A stretch of 64,000 bases of DNA from Rhodospirillales bacterium (GTDB taxonomy: Bacteria > Pseudomonadota > Alphaproteobacteria > Rhodospirillales > Casp-alpha2), in the NCBI GenBank assembly GCA_965222355.1, contig OZ244953.1, forward strand, positions 4,230,714 through 4,294,713. Direction: 5' to 3'. Below are positions 1,227-12,795 of the stretch, piece after piece (the first letter of the stretch is position 1; each line of letters begins with the position of its first letter). The notes below the pieces were generated by a model, which searched no databases, was not told where the DNA came from, and was given only the letters and a program-made list of their open reading frames with translations. Position numbers and translations under genes: made by a program.

Positions 1227-1256
1227 TCAACTGCGGGTAGCCCCACACCGCCGCTC

Positions 1257-1282
1257 GTCACCCCCGCTTTCGCGGGAATGAC
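1257..1282. repeat. Family A REP-like palindrome, right half-element
   Basis: CCCCCGCTTTCGCGGGAATGAC matches the right arm of the full elements and is inverted relative to 474-497. Confidence 0.8.
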
Positions 1283-1290
1283 AAGACGTA

Positions 1291-1815
1291 TCAGGACCCC
1301 AGCGGTTCCGGCGGCATGGACGGGAACATCGGATTGGCCGGCTGCGGCGCGGCCGTCTCGTCGCTCTGGTTCTCATCGGTGATGTCGGCTTCGGCATCCT
1401 CGGACGCCTCCCCCGCGACGGCTTCGTCCATCGGCTCGGCGACAATATCGTCTTCTTCGCCGAGCGGCTCGAGGTCGTTCCGCGTCCACCAGTACCAAAA
1501 GCCCTGCGAGCGCAGCCATTTTTCGAGGCGGTCGAGATTGGACCATTCACGGCCCGCACCGCGCGCCGAATAGATTCTGGCCAACTGTCCGTCGACATAG
1601 ACAAGCACGCCCCACGTATGCGGGTTCTTGGTCTGATCGCCGAATCCCCCGCCTGCCTGCTCGCGCCAGACACGATAAACCACCGCATACTCGCCGAGCC
1701 GCCCGACCGCGCGCAGATACGGCAGGTCGGCCTGGGTGATGGTCATGGTGACCCCCAGCGCCAGGTCCTGCTGGGCTGCGTCCTGTGGAACCGGGTTTCC
1801 GACATCTTGCGGCAT
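1291..1815 (-). CDS. Hypothetical protein with Trp-rich core and acidic C-terminal tail
   Basis: ORF with normal codon pattern; likely start MPQDVGNP at 1815 (ORF track extends to 1881); no family recognised with confidence. Confidence 0.65.
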   Translation of the reverse strand: MPQDVGNPVPQDAAQQDLALGVTMTITQADLPYLRAVGRLGEYAVVYRVWREQAGGGFGDQTKNPHTWGVLVYVDGQLARIYSARGAGREWSNLDRLEKWLRSQGFWYWWTRNDLEPLGEEDDIVAEPMDEAVAGEASEDAEADITDENQSDETAAPQPANPMFPSMPPEPLGS

Positions 1816-2004
1816 GGTGATAGGAACACCTTGTATCATGTTGTTGACACGCACGCTCAAATAACGTACATCATGATACATGCTGTTGACCGATTCCGCT
1901 AGTCCTTAATTCAGCGGGGCCACAGCAGAAGGTTTTCGGGGCCGATGCCCCCAGGATTCAACGGGGCACAGTCCCCATCCAAAACGAGAATTAGGAGTTT
2001 TGAC

Positions 2005-2559
2005 ATGGCTAAAAAAGTTGCTCCGGTGCCCAAAGGCTATCGCACCGTGACCCCGTCCCTGGTCGTCCGTGGCGCCGATGCCGCGCTCGGCTTTTACAAC
2101 GAAGTGTTCGGCGCCGAAGTGCTTTCGCGCACCTACGCCGAAGACGACGTCACCGTCCTGCACGCTGAAATGAAGATCGGCAACTCGATCATCGTCGTTT
2201 CCGACGAACTGCCGGCGTTCGGCATCTGGTCGCCGCTCGCGTTCGGTGGTTCCGCCGTTGCCCAGCACCTCTATGTCGCCAACGTCGACGAGATCTGGGA
2301 ACGCGCCGTCGAAAACGGTTGCACGGTGCTGGTGCCGCTGGCCGACACGCACTATGGTGAACGCTTCGCCAAGGTTGTCGATCCGTTCGGTCACGTCTGG
2401 TCGATGTCGAAACGTATTCCGGCTCCGAAAGCCGAAGACATCAAGGCCCAGACCCAGGCCGAAGGTTTCTCGATCTACGAGCCCCAGGCTCAACGTGAAG
2501 AACAGCAGTACCCGACCGCCGATGCCGCCCACGTTGAGGGCGAGATCGCAGCGGCCTAA
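2005..2559 (+). CDS. VOC/glyoxalase (PhnB-like) family protein
   Basis: AGGAG RBS before MAKKVAP; TPSLVVRGADAALGFY...HAEMKIGNS...ERFAKVVDPFGHVW pattern. Confidence 0.9.
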   Translation: MAKKVAPVPKGYRTVTPSLVVRGADAALGFYNEVFGAEVLSRTYAEDDVTVLHAEMKIGNSIIVVSDELPAFGIWSPLAFGGSAVAQHLYVANVDEIWERAVENGCTVLVPLADTHYGERFAKVVDPFGHVWSMSKRIPAPKAEDIKAQTQAEGFSIYEPQAQREEQQYPTADAAHVEGEIAAA

Positions 2560-2574
2560 CGCTGATATCGGAGG

Positions 2575-2598
2575 GGGCGGCCGATCGGCCGCCCTTTT
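2575..2598 (+). terminator. Rho-independent terminator
   Basis: GGGCGGCC-GATC-GGCCGCCC followed by TTTT just after the VOC stop. Confidence 0.75.
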
Positions 2599-2642
2599 CA
2601 CCTCTGAGGTTTGTCCATTTTTTACACAGGGACTTGAAGGAA

Positions 2643-3947
2643 ATGACTGATAACAAATCGCTCAACGACCGTCGTCAGGCCGCCACGCCCCGGGGCGTCG
2701 GTGTCGCCACCGGCATTTACGCCGACCGCGCCGAAAACGCGGAACTGTGGGACGTCGAAGGCAAGCGCTACGTGGACTTCGCGGGCGGCATTGCCGTTCT
2801 CAACACCGGTCACCGCAACCCGACCGTGATGGCCGCCGTCCAGAAGCAGCTCGAGCGGTTTACCCACACGGCGTATCAGGTCGTTCCCTACGAGCCCTAT
2901 GTCGAACTTGCCGAAAAGCTGAACGAACTGGCGCCGGGCGACACCCCCAAAAAGACCCTGTTCGTGACCACGGGTGCCGAGGCCGTCGAAAACGCGGTCA
3001 AGATCGCGCGCGCCCACACGGGCCGCCCGGGCGTTGTCGCGTTCTCCGGCGGGTTCCACGGCCGCACCATGATGACCATGGGACTGACCGGGAAAGTCGA
3101 CCCCTACAAACGCGGTTTCGGCCCGATGCCGGCCGGCATTCACCACCTGCCGTTCCCGATGCCGATGCACGGCGTCTCGGTCCAGGACTCGATCGACGCG
3201 CTGCACCGCCTGTTCAAGGCCGATCTCGAACCCGAACAGGTCGCAGCGATTATCATCGAGCCGGTCCAGGGCGAAGGCGGTTTCTACATCGCCCCCATCG
3301 AACTGATTAAGGAACTGCGCCGCGTCTGCGACGAACATGGCATCTGCCTGATCGCCGACGAAGTGCAGACCGGTTTCGCCCGCACGGGCCGCATCTTCGC
3401 CTCCGAACACTGGGGTGTCGAGCCGGACATGATCACCACCGCGAAATCGCTCGCGGGCGGTTTCCCGCTCGCCGGCGTTGTCGGCAAGGCGGAAATCATG
3501 GACGCCCCCGCGCCGGGTGGTCTGGGCGGCACTTATGGGGGTAGCCCGATCGGCTGCGCCGCCGCGCTGGGTGTCATCAAGGTGATCGAGGAAGAGCAGC
3601 TTCTGGGCCGCGCCAACATTATCGGCCAGCGCATCGTCGAGCGTGTCAATCGCATCAAAGACCGCACAGACGTGCAGCCGATCGGTGACGTCCGCGGGCT
3701 GGGCGCGATGGTCGCGTTCGAGATGGTGACGGAAAAAGGCACCGATAAACCGGACGCCGACGCCACCAAGACGCTCTGCGCCAAAGCGTTGGAAAAAGGC
3801 CTGATCCTGCTGTCGTGCGGCGTTTACGCCAACACGATCCGGATCCTGGTGCCGCTGACCGCTTCGGATGCCGTTATCGACGAGGGTCTCGACATCATCG
3901 AGAACTGCCTCGCCGAGATGGGCACGACCGCGGTCGCCGCGGAATAA
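2643..3947 (+). CDS. gabT: 4-aminobutyrate:2-oxoglutarate aminotransferase
   Basis: DFAGGIAVLNTGH, THTAYQV, EPVQGEGGF, DEVQTGFARTG, TTAKSLAGGFPL (PLP Lys), GGTYGGSP. Confidence 0.9.
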   Translation: MTDNKSLNDRRQAATPRGVGVATGIYADRAENAELWDVEGKRYVDFAGGIAVLNTGHRNPTVMAAVQKQLERFTHTAYQVVPYEPYVELAEKLNELAPGDTPKKTLFVTTGAEAVENAVKIARAHTGRPGVVAFSGGFHGRTMMTMGLTGKVDPYKRGFGPMPAGIHHLPFPMPMHGVSVQDSIDALHRLFKADLEPEQVAAIIIEPVQGEGGFYIAPIELIKELRRVCDEHGICLIADEVQTGFARTGRIFASEHWGVEPDMITTAKSLAGGFPLAGVVGKAEIMDAPAPGGLGGTYGGSPIGCAAALGVIKVIEEEQLLGRANIIGQRIVERVNRIKDRTDVQPIGDVRGLGAMVAFEMVTEKGTDKPDADATKTLCAKALEKGLILLSCGVYANTIRILVPLTASDAVIDEGLDIIENCLAEMGTTAVAAE

Positions 3948-3954
3948 GGCTTCG

Positions 3955-3986
3955 CCCGGCGGGTGCGGAATACGCCGCCGCCGGGC
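3955..3986 (+). terminator. GC-rich hairpin after gabT (weak terminator or stabiliser)
   Basis: CCCGGCGG...CCGCCGGG stem; no clear U-tract. Confidence 0.4.
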
Positions 3987-4059
3987 AGACCTTGACCGGA
4001 ACACGCTTGCAAGCGACCATTGTAACGTATTGCGAAATAAACATAGAGGTCCCTATTAG

Positions 4060-5016
4060 ATGACCCCCTTCGCGATTGCCGGTGTGCAGATGCAAGTTTC
4101 GGCCAGCCATGAGAACGTGACCGCGATGTCGCATCGCGTCGATCACGTGATGGCGCGCTTTCCCTGGGTTCAGATGATCGTGTTCAGCGAGCTGGCGCCG
4201 TATGGCCCGCTGACCGGCAACCATCCCGAAAGCACAGAAGGGGCGCTTGAGGTCTTCCGCGAAGCCGCGCGCCGTCACAACGTCTGGCTTCTTCCGGGTT
4301 CTATGTTCGAACGCACCGAATACGGCCTTCAGAACGTCGCCTACGTCATCAATCCGCAGGGTGAGACCGTCGGCCGCTACGCCAAGATGTTCCCGTTCCA
4401 GCCGTACGAAGCCGGTGTCGAGGGCGGGACAGAGTTCTGCGTCTTCGACGTGCCGGAAATCGGCCGCTTCGGGGTGTCGATCTGCTACGACATCTGGTTC
4501 CCGGAAACCACGCGCACGCTCGTCTCGATGGGCGCCGAGGTGCTGCTGCACCCGGTCTTAACGGGGACCATCGACCGTGACATCGAACTTTCGATCGCGC
4601 GCTCGACCGCGGCGATGTTCCAGACCTATGTCTTCGACATCAACGGCCTGGGCCCGGGCGGGACCGGACGCTCCTGCGTCGTCGATCCGTCGGGCACCAT
4701 CCTCTATCAGGCCGCCGGCCAGGAGGAAGTGATCCCGGTCGAGGTCGATTTCGACCTGGTGCGCCGCCAGCGCGCCGTGGGCCTTAGGGGCCTGGGGCAG
4801 ACTTTGAAGAGTTTCCGCGACCGAAACGCCTATTTCGGGGTTTATGACCCGACCGTCGCCGATACCAGCTATCTTTACAGCCTGGGCGCGCTGGAAATGC
4901 CGCATCAGGGCTCGCAGGAGGGACTGAACGTCCCCCGCCCCGCCGACGTGAACGGCCACCGGGGCTATAACAACATTACGGTGCTCGACACCCATAAAAG
5001 CGCGAAAGACGCATAA
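4060..5016 (+). CDS. Carbon-nitrogen hydrolase (nitrilase superfamily)
   Basis: Glu-Lys-Cys triad in context: FSELAP, YAKMFP, SICYDIWFPE. Confidence 0.9.
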   Translation: MTPFAIAGVQMQVSASHENVTAMSHRVDHVMARFPWVQMIVFSELAPYGPLTGNHPESTEGALEVFREAARRHNVWLLPGSMFERTEYGLQNVAYVINPQGETVGRYAKMFPFQPYEAGVEGGTEFCVFDVPEIGRFGVSICYDIWFPETTRTLVSMGAEVLLHPVLTGTIDRDIELSIARSTAAMFQTYVFDINGLGPGGTGRSCVVDPSGTILYQAAGQEEVIPVEVDFDLVRRQRAVGLRGLGQTLKSFRDRNAYFGVYDPTVADTSYLYSLGALEMPHQGSQEGLNVPRPADVNGHRGYNNITVLDTHKSAKDA

Positions 5017-5042
5017 AACAATGACGAACAGGGAGTTCAAAA

Positions 5043-7784
5043 ATGCCGGACGAGGGAGCGAAGACTAAGGGCGTATCGCTAGGCCGCTATTACAATGCCA
5101 CCCAGTTCCGCGTCGATACGTGGAACAAGCTCAAGAATATCGTCCTTCGGCTTGCCGAAGGGCGGGAACGCCCCGACGACTATGCGCAGGCCAAGGCGCT
5201 GCTGGACGAACTTGCGCCGTTCGAAACGTATTGGGCGTTTCCGGGCCACCACGATTTCAGGCAGCTCTACCATCTTCTGGACACCAAGGACGTCCGCACG
5301 CTGAGCCGCGCGGTGTCACGCATCGTCGGCGCGATGATGAGCAGCAGCTATCGCCGCAAGCACGTCAACCTCGGCCTTCACGGCGAGGATGAATATCTCG
5401 AGGAAGAGGAACTTGAGACGCTTGAGGAGCGGAGCCGCCGCCGCCCCTATTTCGAAGTGCTGTTCGTCGACGACCTGTCGCACGTGCAGCAGCATCAACA
5501 GGAAGAGGGTCTGCACGGCATGCGCCGCGAGGAAGACCCCTTCACTTACGAACCCGTGTTCGTGCCCAGCTTCGAGGACGCGGTCATCGCGGTCCTGTTC
5601 AACCACAACATCCAGTCGGTGGTGATCCGCTTCGGCTTCCGTTTCAAATCGATCAACGATCTGCCGGTTTTGAACCGATATCTGAAGATGGCGCACATCG
5701 ACAGCGTCGATGACCTGGAGCCGCAGGACTACGGGATCGTCCTGGCCGAGGTGATCGGCCGCATCCGCCCGGAACTGGACCTCTATCTGGTGACCGATCA
5801 GAGCGTCGAGGACGTGGCCGGCCGCGTCGGCGATTCATGCCGCCGCATCTTTTATAATCAGGAAGACTTCCTGGAACTGCACATGAACATCCTGAGGGGT
5901 GTCGACAGCCGCTTCCAGACCCCCTTCTTCACCGCGCTCAGGAATTACGCCAAGCAGCCGACCGGCGTGTTCCACGCGCTCCCCATCTCGCGCGGCAAGT
6001 CGATCACGAAATCCAACTGGATCAGGGACATGGGCGAGTTCTATGGGATGAACATCTTCCTCGCGGAAACGTCGGCGACGTCGGGCGGGCTGGACTCCCT
6101 TCTTGAGCCGATCGGGCCTTTGAAAAAGGCGCAGGAGCTGACATCCCGGGCGTTCGGCTCGCGCAAGACCTTCTTCGCCACCAACGGCACGTCGACCTGT
6201 AACAAGATCGTCGTGCAGGCCGTCGTCCGGCCGGGCGACATCGTTCTCGTCGACCGTGACTGCCACAAGTCGCACCATTACGGGATGGTGCTGGGCGGCG
6301 CGCACGTGGTCTATCTCGATAGTTATCCACTTAGTGAGTATTCGATGTACGGCGCCGTGCCGCTGCGCGAGATCAAGAAAGAACTGCTGGAACTGAAGGC
6401 CGCCGGCAAGCTGGACAAAGTCCGCATGCTTCTGTTGACGAACTGCACCTTCGACGGGCTGGTCTACAATGTCGAACGGGTGATGGAAGAGTGTTTGGCG
6501 ATCAAACCGGATCTCGTCTTCCTGTGGGATGAGGCGTGGTTCGGCTTCGCCCGGTTCGGGCCGACGTATCGTCAACGCACGGCGATGTATCAGGCCGGCA
6601 ACCTCCGCGAAAAGTTCAAGGACCCGGATTATCGCGAGGCCTACGAAGCGCATAAGATCGAGCGCGAGGAAGCCGGCGACGATATCGAGAAACTTCTGGA
6701 TATGCGCCTGATGCCCGATCCGGATACGTCCAGGGTCCGCGTGTACGCGACCCAGTCGACCCACAAGACCCTGACGGCCCTCAGGCAGGGCTCGATGATC
6801 CACGTCCACGACCAGGACTTCGCATCGAAGACGGAGGAAGCCTTCCACGAAGCGTTCATGACCCACACCTCGACCTCGCCCAACTACCAGATTTTGGCGT
6901 CGCTCGACGTCGGGCGCCGGCAGGTCGAACTCGAAGGCTTCGAGATGGTGCAGAAACAGGTCGAGATGGCCATGGTGCTGCGCCAGAAGGTCCGCACCCA
7001 TCCGCTGCTGTCGAAGTTCTTCAAGATTCTCACCGTCGGCGACATGATCCCGGCGGAATACCGGCAATCGGGAATCGAGAGCTACTACGAGGCCGACAAA
7101 GGCTGGAACGATATCTGGGAAGCATGGGCGGGTGATGAGTTCGCGCTCGATGCGACCCGCATCACGCTGCTGGTCGGTGAGACCGGCATGGACGGCGATA
7201 CGTTCAAAAACGCCGAGTTGATGGATAAATACGGCATCCAGATCAACAAGACGTCGCGCAACACGGTCCTGTTCATGACCAACATCGGCACGACGCGTAG
7301 TTCGATCGCGTATCTGATCGAGGTGCTCGTCAAGATCGCCCACGAGATGGAAGAGAAGCTCGAGGACATGAATGCGCCGGAAAAGAAAGCGCACGAGAAA
7401 AAGGTCAACGGCCTCCTGAACGAGTTGCCGCCATTACCCGACTTCTCGCGCTTCCACGACGCCTTCCGACCCGACCCCAAGGGGCACACCCGCGAGGGTG
7501 TGATGCGGGATGCGTACTTCCTTTCTTATGATGAGGACACCTGCGAGTACCTGACCCTCGAAGAGGGGATCGAAGAGGCGATGGCCGCGGGACGCGAGGT
7601 CGTCAGTGCGACCTTCATCATCCCCTACCCGCCGGGCTTCCCGATCCTGGTGCCGGGCCAGGTGGTCTCGAAAGAGATCATCGGGTTCTTCAAGGCGCTC
7701 GATGTGAAGGAAATCCACGGCTACCGCCCGGACCTGGGCTTACGCGTATTTACCGAGGACGCTTTGAAAGCGCGCCTCAAATAG
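5043..7784 (+). CDS. Large fold-type I Orn/Lys/Arg decarboxylase-family protein
   Basis: FHALPISRGKS, FFATNGTSTCNK, VDRDCHKSHH, WDEAWF, TQSTHKTL (PLP Lys), HTSTSPNYQILASLD, YPPGFPILVPG. Confidence 0.9.
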   Translation: MPDEGAKTKGVSLGRYYNATQFRVDTWNKLKNIVLRLAEGRERPDDYAQAKALLDELAPFETYWAFPGHHDFRQLYHLLDTKDVRTLSRAVSRIVGAMMSSSYRRKHVNLGLHGEDEYLEEEELETLEERSRRRPYFEVLFVDDLSHVQQHQQEEGLHGMRREEDPFTYEPVFVPSFEDAVIAVLFNHNIQSVVIRFGFRFKSINDLPVLNRYLKMAHIDSVDDLEPQDYGIVLAEVIGRIRPELDLYLVTDQSVEDVAGRVGDSCRRIFYNQEDFLELHMNILRGVDSRFQTPFFTALRNYAKQPTGVFHALPISRGKSITKSNWIRDMGEFYGMNIFLAETSATSGGLDSLLEPIGPLKKAQELTSRAFGSRKTFFATNGTSTCNKIVVQAVVRPGDIVLVDRDCHKSHHYGMVLGGAHVVYLDSYPLSEYSMYGAVPLREIKKELLELKAAGKLDKVRMLLLTNCTFDGLVYNVERVMEECLAIKPDLVFLWDEAWFGFARFGPTYRQRTAMYQAGNLREKFKDPDYREAYEAHKIEREEAGDDIEKLLDMRLMPDPDTSRVRVYATQSTHKTLTALRQGSMIHVHDQDFASKTEEAFHEAFMTHTSTSPNYQILASLDVGRRQVELEGFEMVQKQVEMAMVLRQKVRTHPLLSKFFKILTVGDMIPAEYRQSGIESYYEADKGWNDIWEAWAGDEFALDATRITLLVGETGMDGDTFKNAELMDKYGIQINKTSRNTVLFMTNIGTTRSSIAYLIEVLVKIAHEMEEKLEDMNAPEKKAHEKKVNGLLNELPPLPDFSRFHDAFRPDPKGHTREGVMRDAYFLSYDEDTCEYLTLEEGIEEAMAAGREVVSATFIIPYPPGFPILVPGQVVSKEIIGFFKALDVKEIHGYRPDLGLRVFTEDALKARLK

Positions 7785-7791
7785 TGCCATT

Positions 7792-7816
7792 GGCGGCGGC
7801 TCGACCCGCCGCCTTT
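7792..7816 (+). terminator. Terminator-like hairpin between decarboxylase and ATP-grasp genes
   Basis: GGCGGCGG-CTCGAC-CCGCCGCC followed by TTTT. Confidence 0.65.
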
Positions 7817-7842
7817 TAAAATTAAACAGGGAGACGATTATC

Positions 7843-9420
7843 ATGGCGACTAAGAAGAAAGCCGCAACCAAGAAGAAAGCGCCCGCAAAGAAGGCCGCTG
7901 CCAAGAAAGCCCCCGCAAAAAAGACTGCCGCCAAGAAGGCGCCCGCGAAAAAGGCTGCTGCACGCAAGCCGCGCCCCAAGAAGCTGAAGAACATTTCCGA
8001 GATCCGGCGGTTCTTCCACCGGAACGAAGATCCGATCTTCTTCATCAGCGCGACCAACTTCAATCTGTTGGGGATTGATGAATGGTGCCGTAACTTCAAA
8101 TACATTTGCTACATCGACTGCTACGACGGGCGTCATCCGAACGTCTTCGTCCCGACCGAAGCGCCCCATCCCGAATTCGAGTCGATCGAGGACATCAACG
8201 CCTACCTGCTCGAGCACAAGGAAGTCATCGACTATGTGAAGTCGAAGGGCGGCAAGCCGAAAGCCGTGTTCCTGATGTTCGACGAGCGGGTCGAGAAAGT
8301 CTGCAAGGAGCTGGGCCTCGAGGTCTGGTTCCCGAAAGCGGCGCTCCGCGAAAAGATCGACCACAAGATCGAAACCGTGCGCATCGGCAACAAGGCGGGC
8401 GTGCCGTCGGTGCCGAACACGCTTGGTGTGATCAACAGCTACGACGATCTCAAGAAGCTCGCGAAGCCATTGGGTAACGATCTGGTCCTTCAGTCCGCGT
8501 TCGGTGACAGCGGTCACACCACGTTCTTCATCAAGAGCGAAAAAGACTACCGCCGCCACGAGCACGACATCGTCGGCCAGGGCGAGATCAAGGTGATGAA
8601 GCGGATCAACTGCCGCGGTTCCGCGATCGAAGCCTGCGCAACATCAAAGGGCACCATCGTCGGCCCGCTGATGACCGAGCTTGTCGGCTTCAAGGAATTG
8701 ACCCCATATCGCGGCGGCTGGTGCGGCAACGAAATCTTCCCCGAAGCGTTCGATCCGAAGATCCGCAAGAAAGCCCGCGAGTACACCTTCCAGTTCGGTA
8801 ACCAACTGGTGAAAGAGGGTTATCGCGGCTATTTCGAGCTCGACTTCCTGATCGATCAGGACGACGGCAACATCTATCTGGGTGAGTGCAACCCACGCGT
8901 CACGGGTGCCAGCTCGATGACCAACCACGCGGCCTTCGCGCATGCCGACGCGCCGCTGTTCCTGTTCCACCTGCTGGAATTCTCGGGCGTGCCGTTCGAC
9001 ATCGACGTCAACGAGTTGAACAACCGCTGGGCCGATGCCGACAATATCGACAGCTGGTGCCAGATGGTGATTAAGCACACAGAAGACAATGTCGATATCA
9101 TCACGGAAGCCCCCGAGTCGGGAATCTGGAGCCTGAACAAGGACGGCAGCGTCACCTACAACCGCTTCGACTATCACCGCCGCGCGGTCGAAAGCGAAGC
9201 CGAGGCGTTCTTCCTGCGCATCTCCGACAAGGGCGATTACCGCTACGAAGGCGCCGATCTGGGGATTCTGATTACCCGCGGGCGGGCGATGGATAACAAG
9301 TTCAAGCTGACCAAACGCGCCAAGCAGTGGATCGAGGGCATCAAGTCCCAGTACAAGGCGAAACCGCTGCCGAAAGCGCAACCGGTCGAGCTTGCGGACC
9401 CGGCGTTCAAGATTCTTTGA
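7843..9420 (+). CDS. ATP-grasp ligase (often auto-annotated as biotin carboxylase) with N-terminal Lys/Ala/Pro repeat tail
   Basis: DHKIETVRI, SAFGDSGHTTFFI, VMKRI, GYFELDFLI, YLGECNPRVTG ATP-grasp motifs; first ~47 aa are KKAPAKKAAA repeats. Confidence 0.85.
   Translation: MATKKKAATKKKAPAKKAAAKKAPAKKTAAKKAPAKKAAARKPRPKKLKNISEIRRFFHRNEDPIFFISATNFNLLGIDEWCRNFKYICYIDCYDGRHPNVFVPTEAPHPEFESIEDINAYLLEHKEVIDYVKSKGGKPKAVFLMFDERVEKVCKELGLEVWFPKAALREKIDHKIETVRIGNKAGVPSVPNTLGVINSYDDLKKLAKPLGNDLVLQSAFGDSGHTTFFIKSEKDYRRHEHDIVGQGEIKVMKRINCRGSAIEACATSKGTIVGPLMTELVGFKELTPYRGGWCGNEIFPEAFDPKIRKKAREYTFQFGNQLVKEGYRGYFELDFLIDQDDGNIYLGECNPRVTGASSMTNHAAFAHADAPLFLFHLLEFSGVPFDIDVNELNNRWADADNIDSWCQMVIKHTEDNVDIITEAPESGIWSLNKDGSVTYNRFDYHRRAVESEAEAFFLRISDKGDYRYEGADLGILITRGRAMDNKFKLTKRAKQWIEGIKSQYKAKPLPKAQPVELADPAFKIL
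7852..7980 (+). repeat. Coding repeat, ~30-bp unit (KKAPAKKAAA x3)
   Basis: Directly visible in DNA and translation. Confidence 0.9.
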
Positions 9421-9459
9421 GGAGCATGGACTCTGGACGCTCTCGCGCGTAATTAGATC

Positions 9460-9532
9460 GTCATTCCCGCGAAAGCGGGAACCCGGAAATGACGTGCCGG
9501 TGCCCCTGGGTCCCCGCCTTCGCGGGGATGAC
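9460..9532. repeat. Family A REP-like full palindromic element
   Basis: GTCATTCCCGCGAAAGCGGGAACCC...GGGTCCCCGCCTTCGCGGGGATGAC. Confidence 0.9.
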
Positions 9533-9560
9533 AACACTGCCCGGCAACAAGGAACCGTTC

Positions 9561-10550
9561 ATGGATCTGGTCTTTGAGACCATAAGCGAGAAGCACGCGG
9601 GCGAGAAATGGCAGTCGCGTTTCGACATGCTCTGGCCCGCTTACCAGCGTTGGTTTCTCTCCGACGGCATCGAGGCCCGCCAGACCTACCTGGCGGGCTA
9701 TCGGGCCTTCAAGCAGTACATGCCAGAGATGGTGCCGACCTATGAAAAGCTCTGCGAGCTTGCAGGCGGCGACGACCTGTCGGCCCGGTTCCTGAGTTTC
9801 TACTGTCCGCCCGCATATCTATCGGGGTGTTCCCAGGCCGTCTGGCCCGGGGCCGAGCCGATGCTGGTCCGCAACTACGATTACGCCCCCGCCCTTTGCG
9901 ACGGTTTGATCCTGCATTCGCGCTGGCACGACAGGTGGGTGTTGGGGATGGCGGACGGGTTGTTCGGCCTGGTTGATGGGATGAACGACCGGGGCCTTGC
10001 GGTATCGCTCACGTTCGGGGGCCGAACCATCGTCGGCGACGGGTTCGGGGTGCCGATCATCCTCCGCTACATCATGGAATTCTGCGACACGGTCAGTGAC
10101 GCGACCGAAGCGCTGACCCGTATCCCATGCCACATGACCTACAACGTCACCGTGGTCGACAAACAGGGCCGGCACGCGACCGTCTATCTGTCGCCGGACC
10201 GGAAGGCCATCGTCACGGATCAAAGGGTCGCGACCAATCACCAGGAGCGTGTCGAATGGCACCGCCACGCCCGCGCCACAGCGACGGTCGAGCGCGAGCG
10301 CTTTCTGTTACAAAGATTGACCCTCCACGACGAACCCGCCGACCGCTTCATCGGTGCATTCCAGAAACCGCCCCTCTATTCGACCGCGTTCGGACGCGGC
10401 TTTGGCACGGTCTACACCGCTGTCTACTGGCCAAAGAAAGGTCTCGCCGAATACCGTTGGCCGGGCGTTCATTGGACGCAGCGCCTCAAATCCCCGGTCG
10501 AGGGCCAGCGCCATATCCGTTTCCCGATGTCCGATCAGGCATTGGCGTAA
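9561..10550 (+). CDS. Peptidase C45 / autoproteolytic acyltransferase-hydrolase (Ntn-hydrolase)
   Basis: SG|CSQ autoproteolysis site, LVRNYDY, LVDGMNDRGLAVS, TNHQ; start MDLVFE at 9561 after the REP element. Confidence 0.85.
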   Translation: MDLVFETISEKHAGEKWQSRFDMLWPAYQRWFLSDGIEARQTYLAGYRAFKQYMPEMVPTYEKLCELAGGDDLSARFLSFYCPPAYLSGCSQAVWPGAEPMLVRNYDYAPALCDGLILHSRWHDRWVLGMADGLFGLVDGMNDRGLAVSLTFGGRTIVGDGFGVPIILRYIMEFCDTVSDATEALTRIPCHMTYNVTVVDKQGRHATVYLSPDRKAIVTDQRVATNHQERVEWHRHARATATVERERFLLQRLTLHDEPADRFIGAFQKPPLYSTAFGRGFGTVYTAVYWPKKGLAEYRWPGVHWTQRLKSPVEGQRHIRFPMSDQALA

Positions 10551-10646
10551 GCATTTTTCGTTTAGCACGTCATAAAACTTTGATGATTTCCCCCGCGCCA
10601 CCTTTTGTTATGGTGAAGGCTTGTTACGCATGAACGGGTTCGATCA

Positions 10647-11300
10647 TTGAAAAAAGTCTACAAAAAGATCTTCAAGGATTTCACGGCCAACGTTGTGCCG
10701 GTCGACTGCGGCGAGAAGTGCCGGCATCTGAACGAGGGCACACCTGTCTGCTGCGATATCGAGAACGCCGTCCCGATCATGGACAAGAGCGAATACAAAC
10801 TGCTCAGGTCCCGCTCCAAACTCTGGCGCAAGTACCGGCCCCCCAACGAACATGGCGAGGAACTCGTTGAATCGCTGCACGAAGATTGCGTTGCGTGTGA
10901 GTGCAAGGGCGCCATGTTCTGCGAACGCGACAACCGCTCGCTATCGTGCCGCGCCTTTCCGTTCTTTCCGTATATTACGAAGAACGGCGACTTCATCGGG
11001 ATGGCGACCTACTGGACGTTCGAGGACCGGTGCTGGGTGATCAGCAACATGAAAAAAGTGACGCCCGAGTTCGTCACCGAATTCCATGGCGTCTATGAGC
11101 ACCTGTTCGAGAACAAGCCCGACGAGTTCGAGGTCTATAAGGATTATTCGGCGACCATGCGGCGCGTGTTCTCGCGCTGGAAACGACCGATTTACATCGT
11201 CGACCGCGACCGCGACTTCCACGCCATCCTGCCCAAGGGTGCGGGGATGGAACCGGTCAAAAAACGCGACCTGCCGAAGTTCGGTCCTTACGCGGAATAG
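10647..11300 (+). CDS. Cys-rich hypothetical protein (YkgJ/CxxCxxCC-like putative Fe-S or Zn cluster protein)
   Basis: CGEKC...VCC, CVACECKGAMFC, SLSCRAFPF, CW; the C-x-x-F-P-F pattern resembles YkgJ/FliB-like proteins. Confidence 0.6.
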   Translation: MKKVYKKIFKDFTANVVPVDCGEKCRHLNEGTPVCCDIENAVPIMDKSEYKLLRSRSKLWRKYRPPNEHGEELVESLHEDCVACECKGAMFCERDNRSLSCRAFPFFPYITKNGDFIGMATYWTFEDRCWVISNMKKVTPEFVTEFHGVYEHLFENKPDEFEVYKDYSATMRRVFSRWKRPIYIVDRDRDFHAILPKGAGMEPVKKRDLPKFGPYAE

Positions 11301-11302
11301 TT

Positions 11303-11400
11303 CCCCTCACCCGGCGCGCAAGCGCGCCACCCTCTCCCCAAGGAGAGGGATGATCGGACATTGGTCCCCTCTCCCTCGGGAGAGGGACAGGGTGAGGGGG
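11303..11400. repeat. Family B palindromic intergenic element
   Basis: CCCTCACCC...CCCTCTCCC...GGAGAGGG...CCCTCTCCC...GGGAGAGGG...GGGTGAGGG, between convergent genes. Confidence 0.9.
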
Positions 11401-11406
11401 TGATGG

Positions 11407-12795
11407 TCAGGAAACGTCCGCGTAAACCGTATCCAGCGATTTCTTCACCGCAGACACGATCTCGTCGACCTCGCCTTCGGTAAGACAGAACGGCGGCGCG
11501 AAACCGAGGATATCGCCGTGCGGCATGGCCCGCGCGATGATCCCGTTTTCGAGCGCGGCAGCCGACATCTTGGCACCAACCTTAAGGCCCGGATCGAAAA
11601 AGGTTTTCGACTTCTTGTCCTGAACGAACTCGATGGCGGCCAGAAGGCCCTCACCACGGACTTCGCCGACCATCGGATGATCCTGGAAATTATCCCTGAG
11701 CGCCTTCTGGAAATAGGCGCCGGTCTTTCTCACGTTCCCGATCAGGTCGTCTTTTTCGATCACGTTCAGATTGGCGACGCCGGCAGCCGCACCGACCGGA
11801 TGCGCGGAATACGTCCAGCCATGCCCGATGGGCCCGAGATCTTCCGAGCCCTGATCCAGAATACCGCAGACCTTCTCGCTCAGGATCGAACCCGACAACG
11901 GGGCGTAGGCGCTGGTCAGGCCCTTGGCGATGGTGATGATGTCGGGCTTCATTTTATAGTGCTCGGACCCGAACCATGAACCCAATCTGCCGAAGCCGGT
12001 CACGACCTCGTCGGCGATCAGCATGACGTCGTATTTATCGAGCACTTTCTGAATAGCCTGCCAGTAACCTTCGGGAGGCGGGATCAGCCCGCCCGTCCCC
12101 ATGAACGGCTCGCCGATGAACGCGGCGACGGTGTCGGGACCTTCGTCCTGGATGAGTTGTTCGAGTTGTAACGCGCAGTAATCGGAGAACTCCAGTTCAC
12201 TCATGCCGTCCTGGGCGTACTTCCAATAATGCGGGCATTGGGTGTGCAACACCCGGTCCAGCGGCAGATCGAACGCCATGTGGAACAGCGGCAGGCCGGT
12301 CAGACTGCCGGTCATCAACCCCGACCCGTGATAGCCCCTGTCGCGGGAAATGATCTTCTTCTTCTCGGGTCTGCCCAGAATGTTGTTCATGTACCAGACC
12401 AGCTTGATGTTGGTCTCGTTCGCATCCGAACCGGACAAGCCGAAATAAACACGGCTCATGTTCTCAGGCGCGAGATCGACGACCTTGGCGGCCAGCCGGA
12501 TCGAGTTCTCGGTGCCGTGGCCGACATACGCGTGATAGAACGCGAGCTTATGGGCTTGTTCTGAGATCGCATCGGCAACCTCGGTCCGGCCATAACCGAT
12601 GTTCACGCAGTAAAGCCCGGCGAACGCGTCCAGGCTCTTCTTACCCGTGCGGTCGGTGATGTAGACCCCCTCGCCCGTTTCGATGACGCGCACCGGCGTC
12701 TTACCGGTGGCATGCCCCTTCACATCCGATGACGCGTGTAGAAAATGCGCCCGGTCAAGCGCTTCCAGTTCATCCATGTTGCGAAGTTCGTTCAT
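11407..12795 (-). CDS. doeD: Class III aminotransferase, DoeD/Atf-like (L-2,4-diaminobutyrate transaminase of ectoine catabolism)
   Basis: DRAHFLHAS, DAFAGLYCVNIGYGRTEVA, YHAYVGHG, SGSDANETNIKLVWY..NILGRPEKKKIISR..GYHGSG..TGSLTGL..FH..FDLP match my recollection of DoeD. Confidence 0.7.
   Translation of the reverse strand: MNELRNMDELEALDRAHFLHASSDVKGHATGKTPVRVIETGEGVYITDRTGKKSLDAFAGLYCVNIGYGRTEVADAISEQAHKLAFYHAYVGHGTENSIRLAAKVVDLAPENMSRVYFGLSGSDANETNIKLVWYMNNILGRPEKKKIISRDRGYHGSGLMTGSLTGLPLFHMAFDLPLDRVLHTQCPHYWKYAQDGMSELEFSDYCALQLEQLIQDEGPDTVAAFIGEPFMGTGGLIPPPEGYWQAIQKVLDKYDVMLIADEVVTGFGRLGSWFGSEHYKMKPDIITIAKGLTSAYAPLSGSILSEKVCGILDQGSEDLGPIGHGWTYSAHPVGAAAGVANLNVIEKDDLIGNVRKTGAYFQKALRDNFQDHPMVGEVRGEGLLAAIEFVQDKKSKTFFDPGLKVGAKMSAAALENGIIARAMPHGDILGFAPPFCLTEGEVDEIVSAVKKSLDTVYADVS

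What the first reader, a model, noticed from the sequence alone, without database searches (positions are those of the whole stretch)
2643..11300. Candidate undescribed polyamine/amide conjugation pathway: GabT - nitrilase - decarboxylase - ATP-grasp - C45 - Cys-rich protein
Seen: six co-oriented genes, bounded by a terminator upstream and a convergent gene downstream. Established chemistry: fold-type I Orn/Lys/Arg decarboxylases make diamines or agmatine; ATP-grasp enzymes form amide bonds; C45 Ntn enzymes transfer or hydrolyse acyl groups; nitrilase-family enzymes cleave C-N bonds (e.g. N-carbamoylputrescine amidase); GabT handles the GABA derived from putrescine. Inference: the cluster makes an amine, ligates it to an amino acid or acyl acceptor, and processes or recycles the conjugate. 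This would be an NRPS-independent small-molecule or polyamine-storage cycle. I know of no characterised pathway with this gene set. This is the best candidate for a novel system in the window.
Basis: partly seen in the sequence, partly recalled or inferred. Interest (0 to 1): 0.82.

Follow-up and report, generated by a model that had tools for sequence, protein, structure and literature searches.

The report
GABA-making, GABA-conjugating enzyme operon
The six genes are real, but the conserved unit is a four-gene cassette that most likely makes GABA from glutamate (not a polyamine), uses ATP to tie the GABA to another molecule, and carries two amide-cleaving enzymes whose roles nobody has tested.

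Summary
Six co-oriented ORFs lie at 2634-11300, with a terminator-like hairpin upstream and a convergent gene downstream.

The interpretation needs correcting.
- **Decarboxylase:** the 913-aa enzyme is not a Lys/Orn/Arg decarboxylase. It is a full-length homolog of M. tuberculosis Rv2531c (870 bits; core 58% identical; substrate residues kept). Rv2531c was shown in 2026 to be an L-glutamate decarboxylase that does not act on Lys, Orn or Arg.
- **ATP-grasp:** this protein (NF005096, labelled "biotin carboxylase") is 44% identical over its full length to the sole NF005096 member of the M. tuberculosis genome, which I take to be Rv1722 from its position and neighbours. Rv1722 (GabtS) ligates GABA to trehalose with ATP.
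- **Synteny:** in 80 genomes the conserved core is CN-hydrolase, decarboxylase, ATP-grasp and C45 (73-80 of 80 loci). gabT is a frequent neighbour. The Cys-rich gene is a bystander.

Best reading: glutamate is converted to GABA. GABA is then either transaminated by GabT or conjugated by the ligase, and C45 and/or the CN-hydrolase release it. The acceptor molecule and both hydrolase functions are unknown.

I found no paper that describes this operon. Earlier agents of this scan reached the same reading in other genomes.

The parts
2575..2599 (+). Terminator-like hairpin (8-bp G+C stem, GATC loop, TTTTC tail) after the upstream VOC/glyoxalase-family gene. It marks the upstream boundary.
   Evidence: fold z -2.6. 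Not listed by the consensus scan, because the tail has only 4 T.
2634..3947 (+). gabT, 4-aminobutyrate--2-oxoglutarate transaminase (437 aa). A frequent but not constant neighbour of the cassette. It would convert GABA to succinate semialdehyde.
   Evidence: TIGR00700 at 606 bits (cut-off 506.65), PF00202 at 442 bits. A class-III aminotransferase cluster occurs in 41 of 80 loci, in variable position and strand.
3954..3986 (+). Strong hairpin without a U-tract in the 112-nt gabT/CN-hydrolase spacer. It may act as an attenuator or processing site, or be a REP-like element. It may separate gabT from the cassette transcriptionally.
   Evidence: region MFE -45.8 kcal/mol, z -2.8.
4060..5016 (+). 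Nitrilase-superfamily C-N hydrolase (318 aa), first gene of the conserved four-gene core. Substrate unknown. It is not an AguB equivalog.
   Evidence: PF00795 at 96 bits. AguB TIGR03381 at only 69.5 bits against a cut-off of 410. E44, K109 and C142 are conserved in at least 97% of 74 sequences. Present in 73 of 80 loci at a fixed offset.
5043..7784 (+). Long-form (four-domain) PLP decarboxylase of the Rv2531c subfamily (913 aa). Predicted to be an L-glutamate decarboxylase that makes GABA.
   Evidence: phmmer against PDB 9n0n/9n0o: 870 bits, residues 14-909 aligned to 17-902. Core 58% identical. H408, K409, PLP-Lys K575, R581, T611 and N735 are conserved, and K722 replaces R718. Present in 80 of 80 loci.
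7843..9420 (+). ATP-grasp ligase of family NF005096/PRK06524 (525 aa), mislabelled 'biotin carboxylase'. It is a homolog of the M. tuberculosis GABA-trehalose synthetase Rv1722 (GabtS). Residues 1-47 (bases 7843-7983) form a Lys/Ala/Pro-rich tail.
   Evidence: NF005096 at 770 bits (cut-off 684). 44% identity, E 2e-155, full length, to the sole NF005096 member of genome G936, identified here as M. tuberculosis. Present in 80 of 80 loci. Fold nearest to biotin carboxylase and PurK at 13-16% identity. Biotin carboxylase Glu296 position is Ala.
9460..9532 (.). REP-like inverted-repeat element inserted between the ATP-grasp and C45 genes. It is a dispersed genomic repeat, not part of the pathway.
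   Evidence: 8 copies of the arm in the window, 0 expected by chance.
9561..10550 (+). C45-family Cys-Ntn autoproteolytic acyltransferase/hydrolase (329 aa from ATG 9561). Predicted self-cleavage at Gly89|Cys90. Proposed to hydrolyse or transfer the conjugate.
   Evidence: NF040521 at 181 bits (cut-off 85), PF03417. C90 is invariant and G89 is conserved in at least 90-97% of sequences. AF2 pLDDT 89.8. Top fold match is the isopenicillin-N acyltransferase precursor 2x1c, TM 0.70. Present in 78 of 80 loci.
10647..11300 (+). Cys-rich conserved hypothetical protein (217 aa). A neighbour only, not part of the cassette.
   Evidence: No Pfam or NCBIfam hit. About 1000 homologs. Adjacent to the cassette in only 6-7 of 80 loci. 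A 52%-identical homolog lies among UbiA, UbiD and DUF4170 genes.
11302..11400 (.). Very stable nested palindrome between convergent genes. It is likely a bidirectional terminator or REP-type element and marks the downstream boundary.
   Evidence: -73.3 kcal/mol, z -7.2, 0 of 200 shuffles as stable.
1945..2559 (+). VOC/glyoxalase-superfamily protein (204 aa), just upstream of the finding. Conserved upstream of gabT in a subset of genomes. Any link to the cassette is unproven.
   Evidence: PF00903, E 1.6e-11. Homologs upstream in 24 of 80 loci at 51-89% identity.

Best explanation
The locus is a GABA module: a conserved four-gene cassette (CN-hydrolase, long-form glutamate decarboxylase, GabtS-type ATP-grasp ligase, C45 Cys-Ntn enzyme) placed here next to gabT.

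**Proposed mechanism.**
1. The 913-aa PLP enzyme decarboxylates L-glutamate to GABA. This is inferred from orthology to Rv2531c and from conserved substrate residues.
2. GABA has two fates.
   - GabT transaminates it to succinate semialdehyde. An SSADH encoded elsewhere in the genome then oxidises that to succinate, giving a GABA shunt.
   - The ATP-grasp enzyme activates the carboxylate of GABA as an acyl-phosphate and ligates it to an acceptor, giving a non-excreted GABA conjugate. This is inferred from 44% full-length identity and shared NCBIfam equivalog membership with Rv1722. The acceptor is unknown. Trehalose is possible, because the genome has an OtsA-type gene.
3. The C45 enzyme sits where actinobacterial relatives, including Rv1723 of M. 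tuberculosis, carry a beta-lactamase-fold serine hydrolase. It is proposed to cleave or transfer the 4-aminobutyryl group and so release GABA. The CN-hydrolase would perform a further amide or carbamoyl cleavage on the conjugate, its acceptor or a precursor. Both roles are inferred from position only.

**Status of the claims.**
- Shown here: gene content, synteny, homologies, intact catalytic residues, and co-occurrence of decarboxylase and ligase.
- Inferred: every substrate and product.

**My own odds.**
- Decarboxylase makes GABA: about 0.8.
- Ligase uses GABA: about 0.6.
- Acceptor is trehalose: about 0.25.
- C45 is the release enzyme: about 0.4.
For: **Decarboxylase.**
- 870-bit, end-to-end match to Rv2531c structures 9n0n/9n0o. 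The catalytic core is 58% identical.
- H405/K406, PLP-Lys, R576, T606 and N731 equivalents are conserved in at least 97% of 75 sequences. R718 is replaced by K.
- Rv2531c converts Glu to GABA and not Lys, Orn or Arg, both in vitro and in vivo (PMC13506015).
- The own genome has no canonical GAD but has an SSADH above cut-off and gabT adjacent.
- A genome with the decarboxylase but no ligase (G242) has it beside an Asp-Al_Ex type exchanger.

**Ligase.**
- NF005096 at 770 bits, above the cut-off of 684.
- Its only NF005096 gene lies at 1.948 Mb and scores 925 bits. It is flanked by a PIN gene and a beta-lactamase-fold gene, which fits Rv1720c-Rv1723. Rv1723 is described as an SXXK putative beta-lactamase (bioRxiv 10.1101/2025.02.25.640225).
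- That gene is 44% identical to the window protein over 482 aligned positions, E 2e-155.
- Purified Rv1722 makes GABA-trehalose from GABA, trehalose and ATP.
- In a tree, the Rv1722-like protein falls in the major clade that holds the window protein (100/100).

**Association with the GABA node in independent contexts.**
- Decarboxylase and ligase are adjacent in 80 of 80 proteobacterial loci.
- In a sample of 301 alphaproteobacterial genomes, 7 of 8 genomes with the ligase also have the decarboxylase, and the two genes are adjacent there.
- Actinobacterial ligase genes lie next to GDH, Aldedh and Aminotran_3 genes, next to the long decarboxylase, or next to amine oxidase, arginase-family, Aldedh and Aminotran_3 genes.
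- In 401 genomes of the genus that holds M. tuberculosis, the two genes are unlinked where I compared positions yet co-occur: 111 with both, 28 with ligase only, 50 with decarboxylase only, odds ratio 16.8.
- Both genes were listed as horizontal acquisitions at the same node (PMC3087520).

**Hydrolases.**
- Both are catalytically intact.
- C45 has the isopenicillin-N acyltransferase/NAAA type Cys-Ntn fold.

**Acceptor.** An OtsA-type gene is present in the genome.
Against: - No biochemical or expression data exist for this organism or for any proteobacterial cassette.
- 44% identity does not fix substrate specificity in ATP-grasp enzymes. The acceptor, and even the acyl donor, could differ.
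- The partner here is a Cys-Ntn enzyme together with a nitrilase-family enzyme. Both families typically cleave amides, not sugar esters. This argues that the product may not be GABA-trehalose.
- Rv2531c has a K0.5 of about 0.5 M for free glutamate (PMC13506015). That leaves room for a different physiological substrate where a ligase is co-encoded.
- Making and then hydrolysing a conjugate is futile unless the two steps are separated in time. No regulator was identified here.
- The Rv1722 work is an un-reviewed preprint with n=1 enzyme assays.
- The mycobacterial co-occurrence is not corrected for phylogeny.
- One genome (G084) has CN-hydrolase, ligase and C45 with no decarboxylase found, although the contig ends there.
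- Co-transcription is untested.
Confidence: 0.55

Rival explanations
1. Tethered or protected-intermediate pathway, on the model of butirosin BtrJ/BtrK. The ATP-grasp first ligates the gamma-carboxyl of glutamate to a carrier or amine. The carrier might even be the enzyme's own conserved C-terminal Lys. The decarboxylase then acts on the gamma-glutamyl conjugate to give a 4-aminobutyryl conjugate. C45 works as an acyltransferase in the manner of isopenicillin-N acyltransferase and passes the 4-aminobutyryl group to a final acceptor. The CN-hydrolase removes a protecting amide.
For: - Rv2531c binds free glutamate very poorly (K0.5 about 509 mM).
- Decarboxylase and ligase are adjacent in 80 of 80 loci.
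- The closest structural relative of C45 is an acyltransferase (2x1c, TM 0.70).
- All 81 sequences of the set (the window and 80 proteobacterial loci) end in a (P)AFK(I/L/M)(L/M)-type motif with a Lys.
- The BtrJ/BtrK precedent for ATP-grasp plus PLP decarboxylation of a gamma-glutamyl thioester comes from my own knowledge. I did not check it here.
Against: - Rv1722 ligates free GABA, not glutamate, to trehalose.
- The Rv1722-like protein ends in ...SRLVARA and lacks the C-terminal Lys motif.
- In M. tuberculosis the decarboxylase makes GABA, on the evidence of a knockout and labelling, while its gene lies about 0.9 Mb from the ligase gene.
- No carrier-protein gene lies in the cassette.
Confidence: 0.12
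2. Catabolic salvage of an imported amide or ureido compound. The CN-hydrolase and C45 liberate glutamate or GABA from an external substrate. In Rhodobacterales this substrate would enter through the adjacent TAXI-TRAP system. The decarboxylase and GabT then feed it into the TCA cycle. The ATP-grasp performs an ATP-dependent activation or carboxylation step of the catabolic route, not a storage ligation.
For: - A TAXI-family binding protein, a fused DctQM permease, a Usp protein and an XRE-cupin regulator lie upstream of the cassette in about 15-19 of 80 loci.
- The nearest folds to the ATP-grasp are bicarbonate-activating enzymes (biotin carboxylase, PurK).
- CN-hydrolases include carbamoyl-amidases.
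- gabT adjacency fits catabolism.
Against: - No transporter lies in this window's cluster.
- Key biotin carboxylase residues are not conserved.
- The characterised relative is a ligase.
- The transporter association covers only a minority of loci.
Confidence: 0.12
3. An Orn/Lys/Arg decarboxylase makes a diamine or agmatine. The ATP-grasp enzyme conjugates it, and C45 and the nitrilase-family enzyme recycle the conjugate, giving a polyamine conjugation or storage cycle.
For: - Pfam and NCBIfam place the catalytic domain in the OKR_DC_1 family, with weak sub-threshold hits to LdcC, AdiA and SpeF.
- The best NCBIfam hit of the CN-hydrolase is AguB, at 69 bits.
Against: - All Lys, Orn and Arg decarboxylase models score far below their cut-offs (214 bits against 968 for LdcC, and similar for the others).
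- The protein is instead an end-to-end homolog of Rv2531c (870 bits, against 194 bits or less for AdiA and Ldc structures).
- Rv2531c does not use Lys, Orn or Arg.
- The Arg residue proposed to bind the side-chain carboxylate of glutamate is conserved.
- AguB membership fails (69.5 bits against a cut-off of 410).
Confidence: 0.05
4. The genes are unrelated neighbours with independent functions.
For: - Spacers of 26-140 nt separate the genes, rather than overlaps.
- A hairpin follows gabT, and a REP-like element lies between the ATP-grasp and C45 genes.
Against: - The same order and orientation of the four core genes recur in 73-80 of 80 loci across Rhodospirillales, Hyphomicrobiales, Rhodobacterales, Kiloniellales, Kordiimonadales and Gammaproteobacteria.
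- Decarboxylase and ligase co-occur almost perfectly in a class-wide sample in which only about 3% of genomes carry them.
Confidence: 0.03

Closest known systems
M. tuberculosis Rv2531c, the long-form 'cloaked' L-glutamate decarboxylase of the Lys/Orn/Arg-decarboxylase superfamily (PMC13506015; cryoEM PMC12329521; PDB 9N0N/9N0O/9N0P)
   Same: - Same four-domain length class (913 aa against 947 aa), aligned end to end at 870 bits.
- 58% identity in the catalytic core.
- PLP-Lys, His-Lys pair, R576, T606 and N731 equivalents conserved.
- Association with GABA-shunt genes.
   Different: - R718 is Lys in the window protein and in at least 97% of the 75 aligned cassette decarboxylases.
- Here the gene is embedded in an operon with a ligase and two hydrolases. 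In the genome identified as M. tuberculosis it lies about 0.9 Mb from the ligase gene.
- Activity is untested for any proteobacterial member.
M. tuberculosis Rv1722 (GabtS), the ATP-grasp GABA-trehalose synthetase (bioRxiv 10.64898/2026.04.15.718621), with its downstream neighbour Rv1723, a beta-lactamase-fold hydrolase of unknown physiological substrate (bioRxiv 10.1101/2025.02.25.640225)
   Same: - Same NCBIfam equivalog NF005096, both above cut-off (770 and 926 bits).
- 44% identity over the full length.
- Same major tree clade.
- A hydrolase gene immediately downstream in both.
- Co-occurrence with the long decarboxylase.
   Different: - The partner hydrolase is a Cys-Ntn C45 enzyme here, not a serine beta-lactamase-fold enzyme.
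- An extra CN-hydrolase is present.
- The window protein has a Lys/Ala-rich N-terminal tail and a conserved C-terminal AFK(I/L) motif that the mycobacterial protein lacks.
- The acceptor may therefore differ. Neither trehalose use nor GABA use is shown.
Butirosin side-chain pathway BtrJ (ATP-grasp), BtrK (PLP decarboxylase), BtrH (acyltransferase), BtrG (recalled from my own knowledge, not checked here)
   Same: It combines an ATP-grasp ligase, a glutamate-to-GABA type decarboxylation, an acyl-transfer step and an amide-cleaving deprotection step.
   Different: - Butirosin chemistry runs on an acyl carrier protein, and no carrier gene is present here.
- BtrK, as I recall it, belongs to a different PLP fold, and none of the enzymes was shown here to be a relative.
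- It is an analogy of logic only.
E. coli Puu pathway (PuuA gamma-glutamylation, PuuD hydrolysis, PuuE GABA transaminase); recalled from my own knowledge
   Same: ATP-dependent conjugation, later amide hydrolysis, and a GabT-type transaminase at the GABA end.
   Different: - PuuA is glutamine-synthetase-like, not ATP-grasp.
- PuuD is a class-I amidotransferase-like hydrolase.
- The substrate is putrescine, and there is no decarboxylase of this type.
Isopenicillin-N acyltransferase (peptidase family C45; PDB 2X1C/2X1D/2X1E)
   Same: - Same fold, with an N-terminal pro-region and a Gly|Cys self-cleavage site (TM 0.70).
- NF040521 membership.
   Different: - Only about 14% identity, and no sequence-level PDB hit.
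- The substrate is certainly different.
- Whether it hydrolyses or transfers is unknown.

Membership tests
Rv2531c-type long-form L-glutamate decarboxylase | Four-domain architecture, with an extra N-terminal domain ahead of the receiver-like wing domain | tested here: met
   Residues 14-909 align to 17-902 of 9n0n_A in one stretch, 870 bits. The Pfam major domain starts only at residue 293.
Rv2531c-type long-form L-glutamate decarboxylase | PLP lysine (S-T-H-K) and the His405/Lys406 pair | tested here: met
   STHK at 572-575 and H408/K409. Conserved in at least 97% of 75 aligned sequences.
Rv2531c-type long-form L-glutamate decarboxylase | Residues proposed to select glutamate (R576, T606, R718, N731) | tested here: met
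   R581, T611 and N735 are conserved. The R718 equivalent is K722, a conservative change found in at least 97% of the set. The roles of these residues rest on modelling in PMC13506015.
Rv2531c-type long-form L-glutamate decarboxylase | Decarboxylates L-glutamate and not Lys, Orn or Arg; requires Mg2+ | not testable with these tools
   Needs an enzyme assay.
Enterobacterial-type Lys/Orn/Arg decarboxylases (LdcC/CadA, AdiA, SpeC/SpeF) | Score above the NCBIfam cut-offs of these equivalogs | tested here: not met
   214 bits against 968 (LdcC), 181 against 1167 (AdiA), 162 against 794 (ODC).
NF005096/PRK06524 ATP-grasp family (characterised member: Rv1722 GabtS) | Whole-protein score above the curated cut-off | tested here: met
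   770.5 bits against a cut-off of 684. The Rv1722-like protein scores 926 bits on the same model.
NF005096/PRK06524 ATP-grasp family (characterised member: Rv1722 GabtS) | Full-length homology to Rv1722 itself | tested here: met
   44% identity, 65% positives, E 2e-155 over 482 aligned positions, to the only NF005096 gene of genome G936. I identified G936 as M. tuberculosis by a 100% Rv2531c match and by the PIN and beta-lactamase-fold neighbours. The gene carries no name in the tool, so its identity as Rv1722 is inferred from position and neighbours.
NF005096/PRK06524 ATP-grasp family (characterised member: Rv1722 GabtS) | ATP-dependent ligation of the GABA carboxylate to trehalose | not testable with these tools
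   Only indirect evidence: an OtsA-type gene exists in the genome. The amidase-type partner enzymes argue for a different acceptor.
Biotin carboxylase (AccC and relatives) | Score above the accC or pyruvate carboxylase cut-offs | tested here: not met
   TIGR00514 at 27 bits against 626.5. All accC-type models score 33 bits or less.
Biotin carboxylase (AccC and relatives) | Catalytic residues beyond the shared E-x-N-x-R motif (Glu296 base, Lys238, Arg338) | tested here: not met
   hhalign against the genome's own AccC: ECNPRVTGA aligns with EMNTRLQVE, so the Glu296 position is Ala. The alignment stops before the Arg338 region, and Lys238 is not matched.
Biotin carboxylase (AccC and relatives) | BCCP or carboxyltransferase partner in the neighbourhood | tested here: not met
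   None among the window ORFs at 1-16000 or among the conserved neighbour clusters of 80 loci.
Peptidase C45 / Cys-Ntn autoproteolytic acyltransferase-hydrolase | Family score, Gly|Cys processing site, and Ntn fold with a pro-region | tested here: met
   NF040521 at 181 bits against a cut-off of 85. C90 is invariant and G89 is conserved in at least 90-97% of sequences. AF2 pLDDT 89.8. Isopenicillin-N acyltransferase precursor TM 0.70. Self-cleavage itself is not testable here.
Nitrilase superfamily (C-N hydrolase) | Glu-Lys-Cys catalytic triad and PF00795 membership | tested here: met
   PF00795 at 96 bits against a cut-off of 23. E44, K109 and C142 are conserved in at least 97% of 74 sequences.
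N-carbamoylputrescine amidase (AguB) | Equivalog score | tested here: not met
   69.5 bits against a cut-off of 410.25, and only a partial alignment.
GABA transaminase (GabT) | Equivalog score | tested here: met
   TIGR00700 at 606 bits against a cut-off of 506.65. The PRK-type gabT models fall just below their own cut-offs.

The most novel reading that the evidence does not exclude
ATP-driven conjugation of GABA is not a mycobacterial peculiarity. It would be an operon-encoded pathway widespread in marine and soil Proteobacteria. The product here would differ from GABA-trehalose, probably being an amide-linked 4-aminobutyryl compound. The C45 enzyme would be the first of its family assigned to GABA-conjugate turnover or 4-aminobutyryl transfer. 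The nitrilase-family enzyme would complete a make, store and release cycle that buffers glutamate and GABA under stress.
Probability: 0.3. Interest if true: 0.75.

Novelty: new variant of a known kind. Interest (0 to 1): 0.6.

Why it matters
Two enzymes were characterised only in 2026, separately and as unlinked genes in M. tuberculosis: the "cloaked" glutamate decarboxylase and the GABA-trehalose ligase. Here they are fused into one operon, conserved at 60-80% identity across several bacterial orders. This has four consequences.

1. It gives independent genomic support that the two enzymes work in one pathway.
2. It predicts that GABA conjugates exist well outside mycobacteria, in ecologically important marine Roseobacter-group bacteria, rhizobial plasmids and others.
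3. It names concrete candidates for the still-unknown breakdown step of GABA conjugates: C45 and the CN-hydrolase here, and the beta-lactamase-fold neighbour in Actinobacteria.
4. It corrects two systematic annotation errors, "Orn/Lys/Arg decarboxylase" and "biotin carboxylase". These labels affect the thousands of clustered database sequences that matched the ligase (6747 hits), and presumably their decarboxylase partners.

All of this can be tested directly with standard enzymology and metabolomics in non-pathogenic cultured carriers.

Tried and rejected
- **S. meliloti SMa0680/SMa0682.** I first suspected these FixJ-regulated "Orn/Lys/Arg decarboxylases" as the known counterpart. In pSymA of strain 1021 they are only 27% identical to the window decarboxylase. 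The SM11 plasmid copy of decarboxylase, ligase and C45 is a different locus. Dropped.
- **Keyword literature searches for the gene set** (ATP-grasp, C45, nitrilase, decarboxylase, "peptidase C45", biotin carboxylase) found nothing relevant. Neither Rv2531c paper mentions the neighbourhood.
- **Sequence search of C45 against the PDB:** no hit. The CN-hydrolase hits only generic family members at 61 bits or less.
- **ATP-grasp structure.** The AF2 model is only moderate (pLDDT 69). Foldseek returns biotin carboxylase, PurK and PurT at 13-16% identity, which does not reveal the substrate.
- **Naming Rv1722 through the 50% representatives and cluster look-ups.** This gave no organism names beyond an Allobranchiibius MAG. 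A homolog search from that protein listed no Mycobacterium among the top 120. The route that worked went from the Microlunatus locus to a class sample, then a genus sample, then the 100% Rv2531c match.
- **Cys-rich protein as a pathway member:** rejected.
- **Recent horizontal transfer judged from composition:** GC3 is uniform at 0.79-0.82 across the genes, so there is no signal here.
The C-terminal AFK motif is indeed universal in the proteobacterial clade. It is absent from the characterised mycobacterial enzyme, so I keep it only inside a rival explanation.

Full report
**1. The observation.**

The window carries six co-oriented + strand ORFs:
- 2634-3947, 437 aa
- 4060-5016, 318 aa
- 5043-7784, 913 aa
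- 7843-9420, 525 aa
- 9489-10550, of which the real start is probably ATG 9561, giving 329 aa
- 10647-11300, 217 aa

- Class-III aminotransferase, with GabT TIGR00700 at 606 bits above its cut-off.
- CN_hydrolase.
- OKR_DC_1 decarboxylase.
- An ATP-grasp protein matching NF005096/PRK06524 "biotin carboxylase" at 770 bits (cut-off 684).
- A C45 autoproteolytic enzyme (NF040521, 181 bits against 85).
- A Cys-rich protein with no family.

A G+C hairpin with a TTTTC tail lies at 2575-2599, after the stop of an upstream VOC-family gene. A convergent omega-aminotransferase gene follows a very stable nested palindrome at 11302-11400. The stretch between the ATP-grasp and C45 genes holds a dispersed REP-like inverted repeat, with 8 copies of its arm in the window against 0 expected. 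This explains the spurious N-terminal extension of the C45 ORF.

**2. What is conserved.**

A scan of species genomes with the ATP-grasp protein returned 80 loci. They come from Rhodospirillales, Hyphomicrobiales, Rhodobacterales, Kiloniellales, Kordiimonadales and several Gammaproteobacteria. I ran tblastn and all-against-all ORF clustering on them.

| Gene | Loci out of 80 |
|---|---|
| Decarboxylase | 80 |
| Ligase | 80 |
| C45 | 78 |
| CN-hydrolase | 73 |

The four genes keep the same order and orientation, at 53-90% identity.

Other neighbours are less constant:
- A class-III aminotransferase is near in 41 loci, in variable position and strand.
- The VOC gene is near in 24 loci.
- A TAXI-type TRAP transporter, a Usp protein and an XRE-cupin regulator lie upstream in about 15-19 loci.
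- The Cys-rich gene is adjacent in only the 6-7 closest relatives. It has about 1000 homologs, and a 52%-identical one sits among UbiA, UbiD and DUF4170 genes. It is a bystander.

In an even sample of 301 alphaproteobacterial genomes:
- The ligase is present above cut-off in 8, and the long decarboxylase in 8.
- Seven genomes have both, and there the two genes are adjacent.
- One has CN-hydrolase, ligase and C45 at a contig end.
- One has only a 54%-identical decarboxylase. It lies beside an Asp-Al_Ex type exchanger, an arrangement typical of substrate/product antiport with an acidic amino acid.

The distribution is patchy while sequence conservation is high. That fits an accessory, mobile cassette. 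However, GC3 is uniform here.

**3. The decarboxylase.**

A sequence search of the PDB gave an end-to-end match to "Probable amino acid decarboxylase" 9n0n/9n0o/9n0p (870 bits, E 1e-260). AdiA, Ldc and ODC structures scored 194 bits or less.

These entries are M. tuberculosis Rv2531c. The cryoEM paper describes an extra N-terminal four-helix domain and a receiver-like domain (PMC12329521).

A 2026 study shows that Rv2531c is not a Lys/Orn/Arg decarboxylase but an L-glutamate decarboxylase (PMC13506015):
- The knockout loses 84% of its GABA and all 13C-glutamate-to-GABA labelling.
- The pure enzyme converts only glutamate.
- It needs Mg2+.
- It shows K0.5 509 mM and a Hill number of 4.

In the window protein, the His-Lys pair, the PLP lysine and the equivalents of R576, T606 and N731 are conserved, and R718 is replaced by Lys. 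The same residues are conserved in at least 97% of 75 aligned cassette decarboxylases. The catalytic core is 58% identical.

The window's genome has no canonical GAD. It does have an SSADH above cut-off elsewhere.

So the amine made here is most likely GABA. This also explains the recurrent gabT.

**4. The ATP-grasp enzyme.**

It is only remotely like biotin carboxylases:
- 33 bits or less on all accC-type and pyruvate carboxylase models.
- 13-16% identity in fold matches.
- The E-x-N-x-R motif is kept, but the Glu296 position is Ala.

Notes from earlier agents of this scan pointed to a 2026 preprint. It shows that Rv1722, an ATP-grasp protein annotated as a "carboxylase", is GABA-trehalose synthetase. 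It converts GABA, trehalose and ATP into the 6'-ester (10.64898/2026.04.15.718621).

I tested the homology myself, because no tool names the gene:
1. From an actinobacterial representative I reached a Microlunatus genome handle.
2. From there I sampled its class, then the genus that holds 91%-identical Rv2531c homologs.
3. I found genome G936: 4.4 Mb, one contig, with a 100% match to the PDB Rv2531c sequence at 2.856 Mb.
4. Its single NF005096 gene lies at 1.948 Mb and scores 925 bits.
5. A PIN-domain gene precedes it, and a beta-lactamase-fold gene follows immediately. This fits Rv1720c to Rv1723. Rv1723 is described independently as an SXXK putative beta-lactamase with poor beta-lactamase activity.
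6. That gene is 44% identical (65% positives, E 2e-155) to the window protein over the full length.

In a maximum-likelihood tree, this protein falls in the major clade that holds the proteobacterial, C45-partnered ligases (100/100). The bulk of actinobacterial homologs lie apart. This agrees with the reported horizontal acquisition.

**5. Independent ties between the ligase and GABA.**

In Actinobacteria the ligase gene lies in three kinds of context:
- Divergent from large-GDH, aldehyde dehydrogenase and class-III aminotransferase genes, and followed by a beta-lactamase-fold gene (Antrihabitans).
- Directly after a long decarboxylase and before a beta-lactamase-fold gene (Jatrophihabitans).
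- After Cu-amine-oxidase, amino acid permease and arginase-family genes, and beside Aldedh, Aminotran_3 and PucR genes (Microlunatus).

These are three different routes that all converge on GABA.

In 401 genomes of the mycobacterial genus, the Rv1722-type ligase is present in 139 and the long decarboxylase in 161. They co-occur in 111 (odds ratio 16.8). In G936 and G487, where both genes lie on a single contig, they are 0.8-0.9 Mb apart. This test is not corrected for phylogeny. Veyrier et al. list both genes as acquired by the ancestor of slow growers (PMC3087520).

**6. The two hydrolases.**

*C45:*
- Cys90 is invariant and Gly89 is conserved in at least 90-97% of sequences.
- The model is confident (pLDDT 89.8).
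- The best structural matches are the isopenicillin-N acyltransferase precursor (TM 0.70), then NAAA, acid ceramidase and bile-salt/penicillin-V hydrolases. All of these are Cys-Ntn amide-cleaving or acyl-transferring enzymes.
- It occupies the position that a beta-lactamase-fold hydrolase holds in Actinobacteria.

*CN-hydrolase:*
- It has an intact Glu-Lys-Cys triad.
- It fails the AguB test, and its other equivalog hits (formamidase, archaeal nitrilase, deaminated glutathione amidase, aliphatic amidase) also fall far below their cut-offs.

Their substrates are unknown. Their family chemistry suggests that the proteobacterial conjugate may be an amide, not a sugar ester. The genome does nevertheless encode an OtsA-type enzyme.

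**7. Reading.**

The best-supported explanation is a GABA module. Glutamate is decarboxylated to GABA. GABA is then either burnt through GabT and SSADH or conjugated at ATP cost by a GabtS-type ligase. C45 and/or the CN-hydrolase release or transfer the 4-aminobutyryl group.

Rivals:
- A tethered gamma-glutamyl route of the BtrJ/BtrK kind. The very high K0.5 of Rv2531c, the acyltransferase-like C45 and the universal C-terminal AFK motif favour it. The free-GABA activity of Rv1722 and the absence of that motif from the Rv1722-like protein count against it.
- Catabolism of an imported amide, suggested by the TRAP association.

**8. Novelty.**

The decarboxylase and the ligase each have a relative characterised in 2026. 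In the literature I could search, three things are undescribed:
- the operon that joins them;
- its wide distribution in Proteobacteria;
- the two hydrolases.

Earlier agents of this scan reached the same conclusion in at least 18 other genomes. That is not independent evidence, but it shows the cassette is common. I rate it a new variant of a known kind, of moderate to high interest.

Noticed in passing
window 9460-9532; also 1261-1282, 17588-17660, 31798-31819, 44698-44767: A dispersed REP-like inverted-repeat element with arm GTCATTCCCGCGAAAGCGGGAA. There are 8 arm copies in the window against 0 expected, usually as facing pairs about 30 nt apart. One pair lies between the ATP-grasp and C45 genes and inflates the C45 ORF by 24 codons.
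   Followed up: partly
window 11302-11400: An unusually stable nested palindrome (-73 kcal/mol, z -7.2) between the convergent Cys-rich gene and the omega-aminotransferase gene.
   Followed up: no
window 9403-9420 (ATP-grasp C-terminus) and 80 related loci: All 81 sequences of the set (the window and 80 proteobacterial loci) end in a (P)AFK(I/L/M)(L/M)-type motif. The Rv1722-like protein ends in ...SRLVARA. Other actinobacterial homologs end in GFKSL, PSKSF or NSTIK. The function of this tail is unexplained. It could be a docking peptide or an acceptor lysine.
   Followed up: partly
window 7843-7983: The Lys/Ala/Pro-rich N-terminal tail of the ligase is specific to the lineage. In the 78 of 81 aligned sequences (window plus 80 loci) where it could be measured, its length ranges from 4 to 117 residues (median 10.5). 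It is therefore not needed for catalysis.
   Followed up: partly
window 1291-1881 (-) and 1945-2559 (+): A protein of about 196 aa with no family, and a VOC/glyoxalase-family protein, are conserved upstream of gabT and the cassette in 24-26 of 80 loci from several orders. They may belong to a larger transferred block.
   Followed up: partly
L027:2209-6118 and about 18 other loci (Rhodobacterales and others): A TAXI-family TRAP binding protein, a fused DctQM/DUF3394 permease, a Usp protein and an XRE-cupin regulator lie directly upstream of the CN-hydrolase gene. They may import glutamate or the conjugate.
   Followed up: no
L087 (G242:C61) 6054-11322: A 54%-identical long decarboxylase without ligase or C45 lies divergent from an Asp-Al_Ex/TrkA_C exchanger. 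This suggests a decarboxylase-antiporter pair.
   Followed up: partly
genus-level sample around G936: Besides the Rv1722-type ligase (815 bits or more, 139 genomes), a second NF005096 type scoring about 750 bits occurs in 59 further genomes. It is negatively associated with the long decarboxylase (13 with, 46 without).
   Followed up: no
L088 (G264:C1) about 10110-11722: An alphaproteobacterial genome keeps only the C-terminal third of the ligase gene, next to an intact C45 gene. The cassette appears to be decaying there.
   Followed up: no
L085 (R. leguminosarum plasmid p3) 6141-11718: On this plasmid the decarboxylase is split and the C45 gene is truncated by IS30 and ISNCY transposases. The locus lies a few kb from fixAB genes.
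   Followed up: no
window 11407-13695: An omega-aminotransferase (NF005684, 801 bits) and an SDR gene downstream are conserved only in the closest relatives. No link to the cassette was found.
   Followed up: partly
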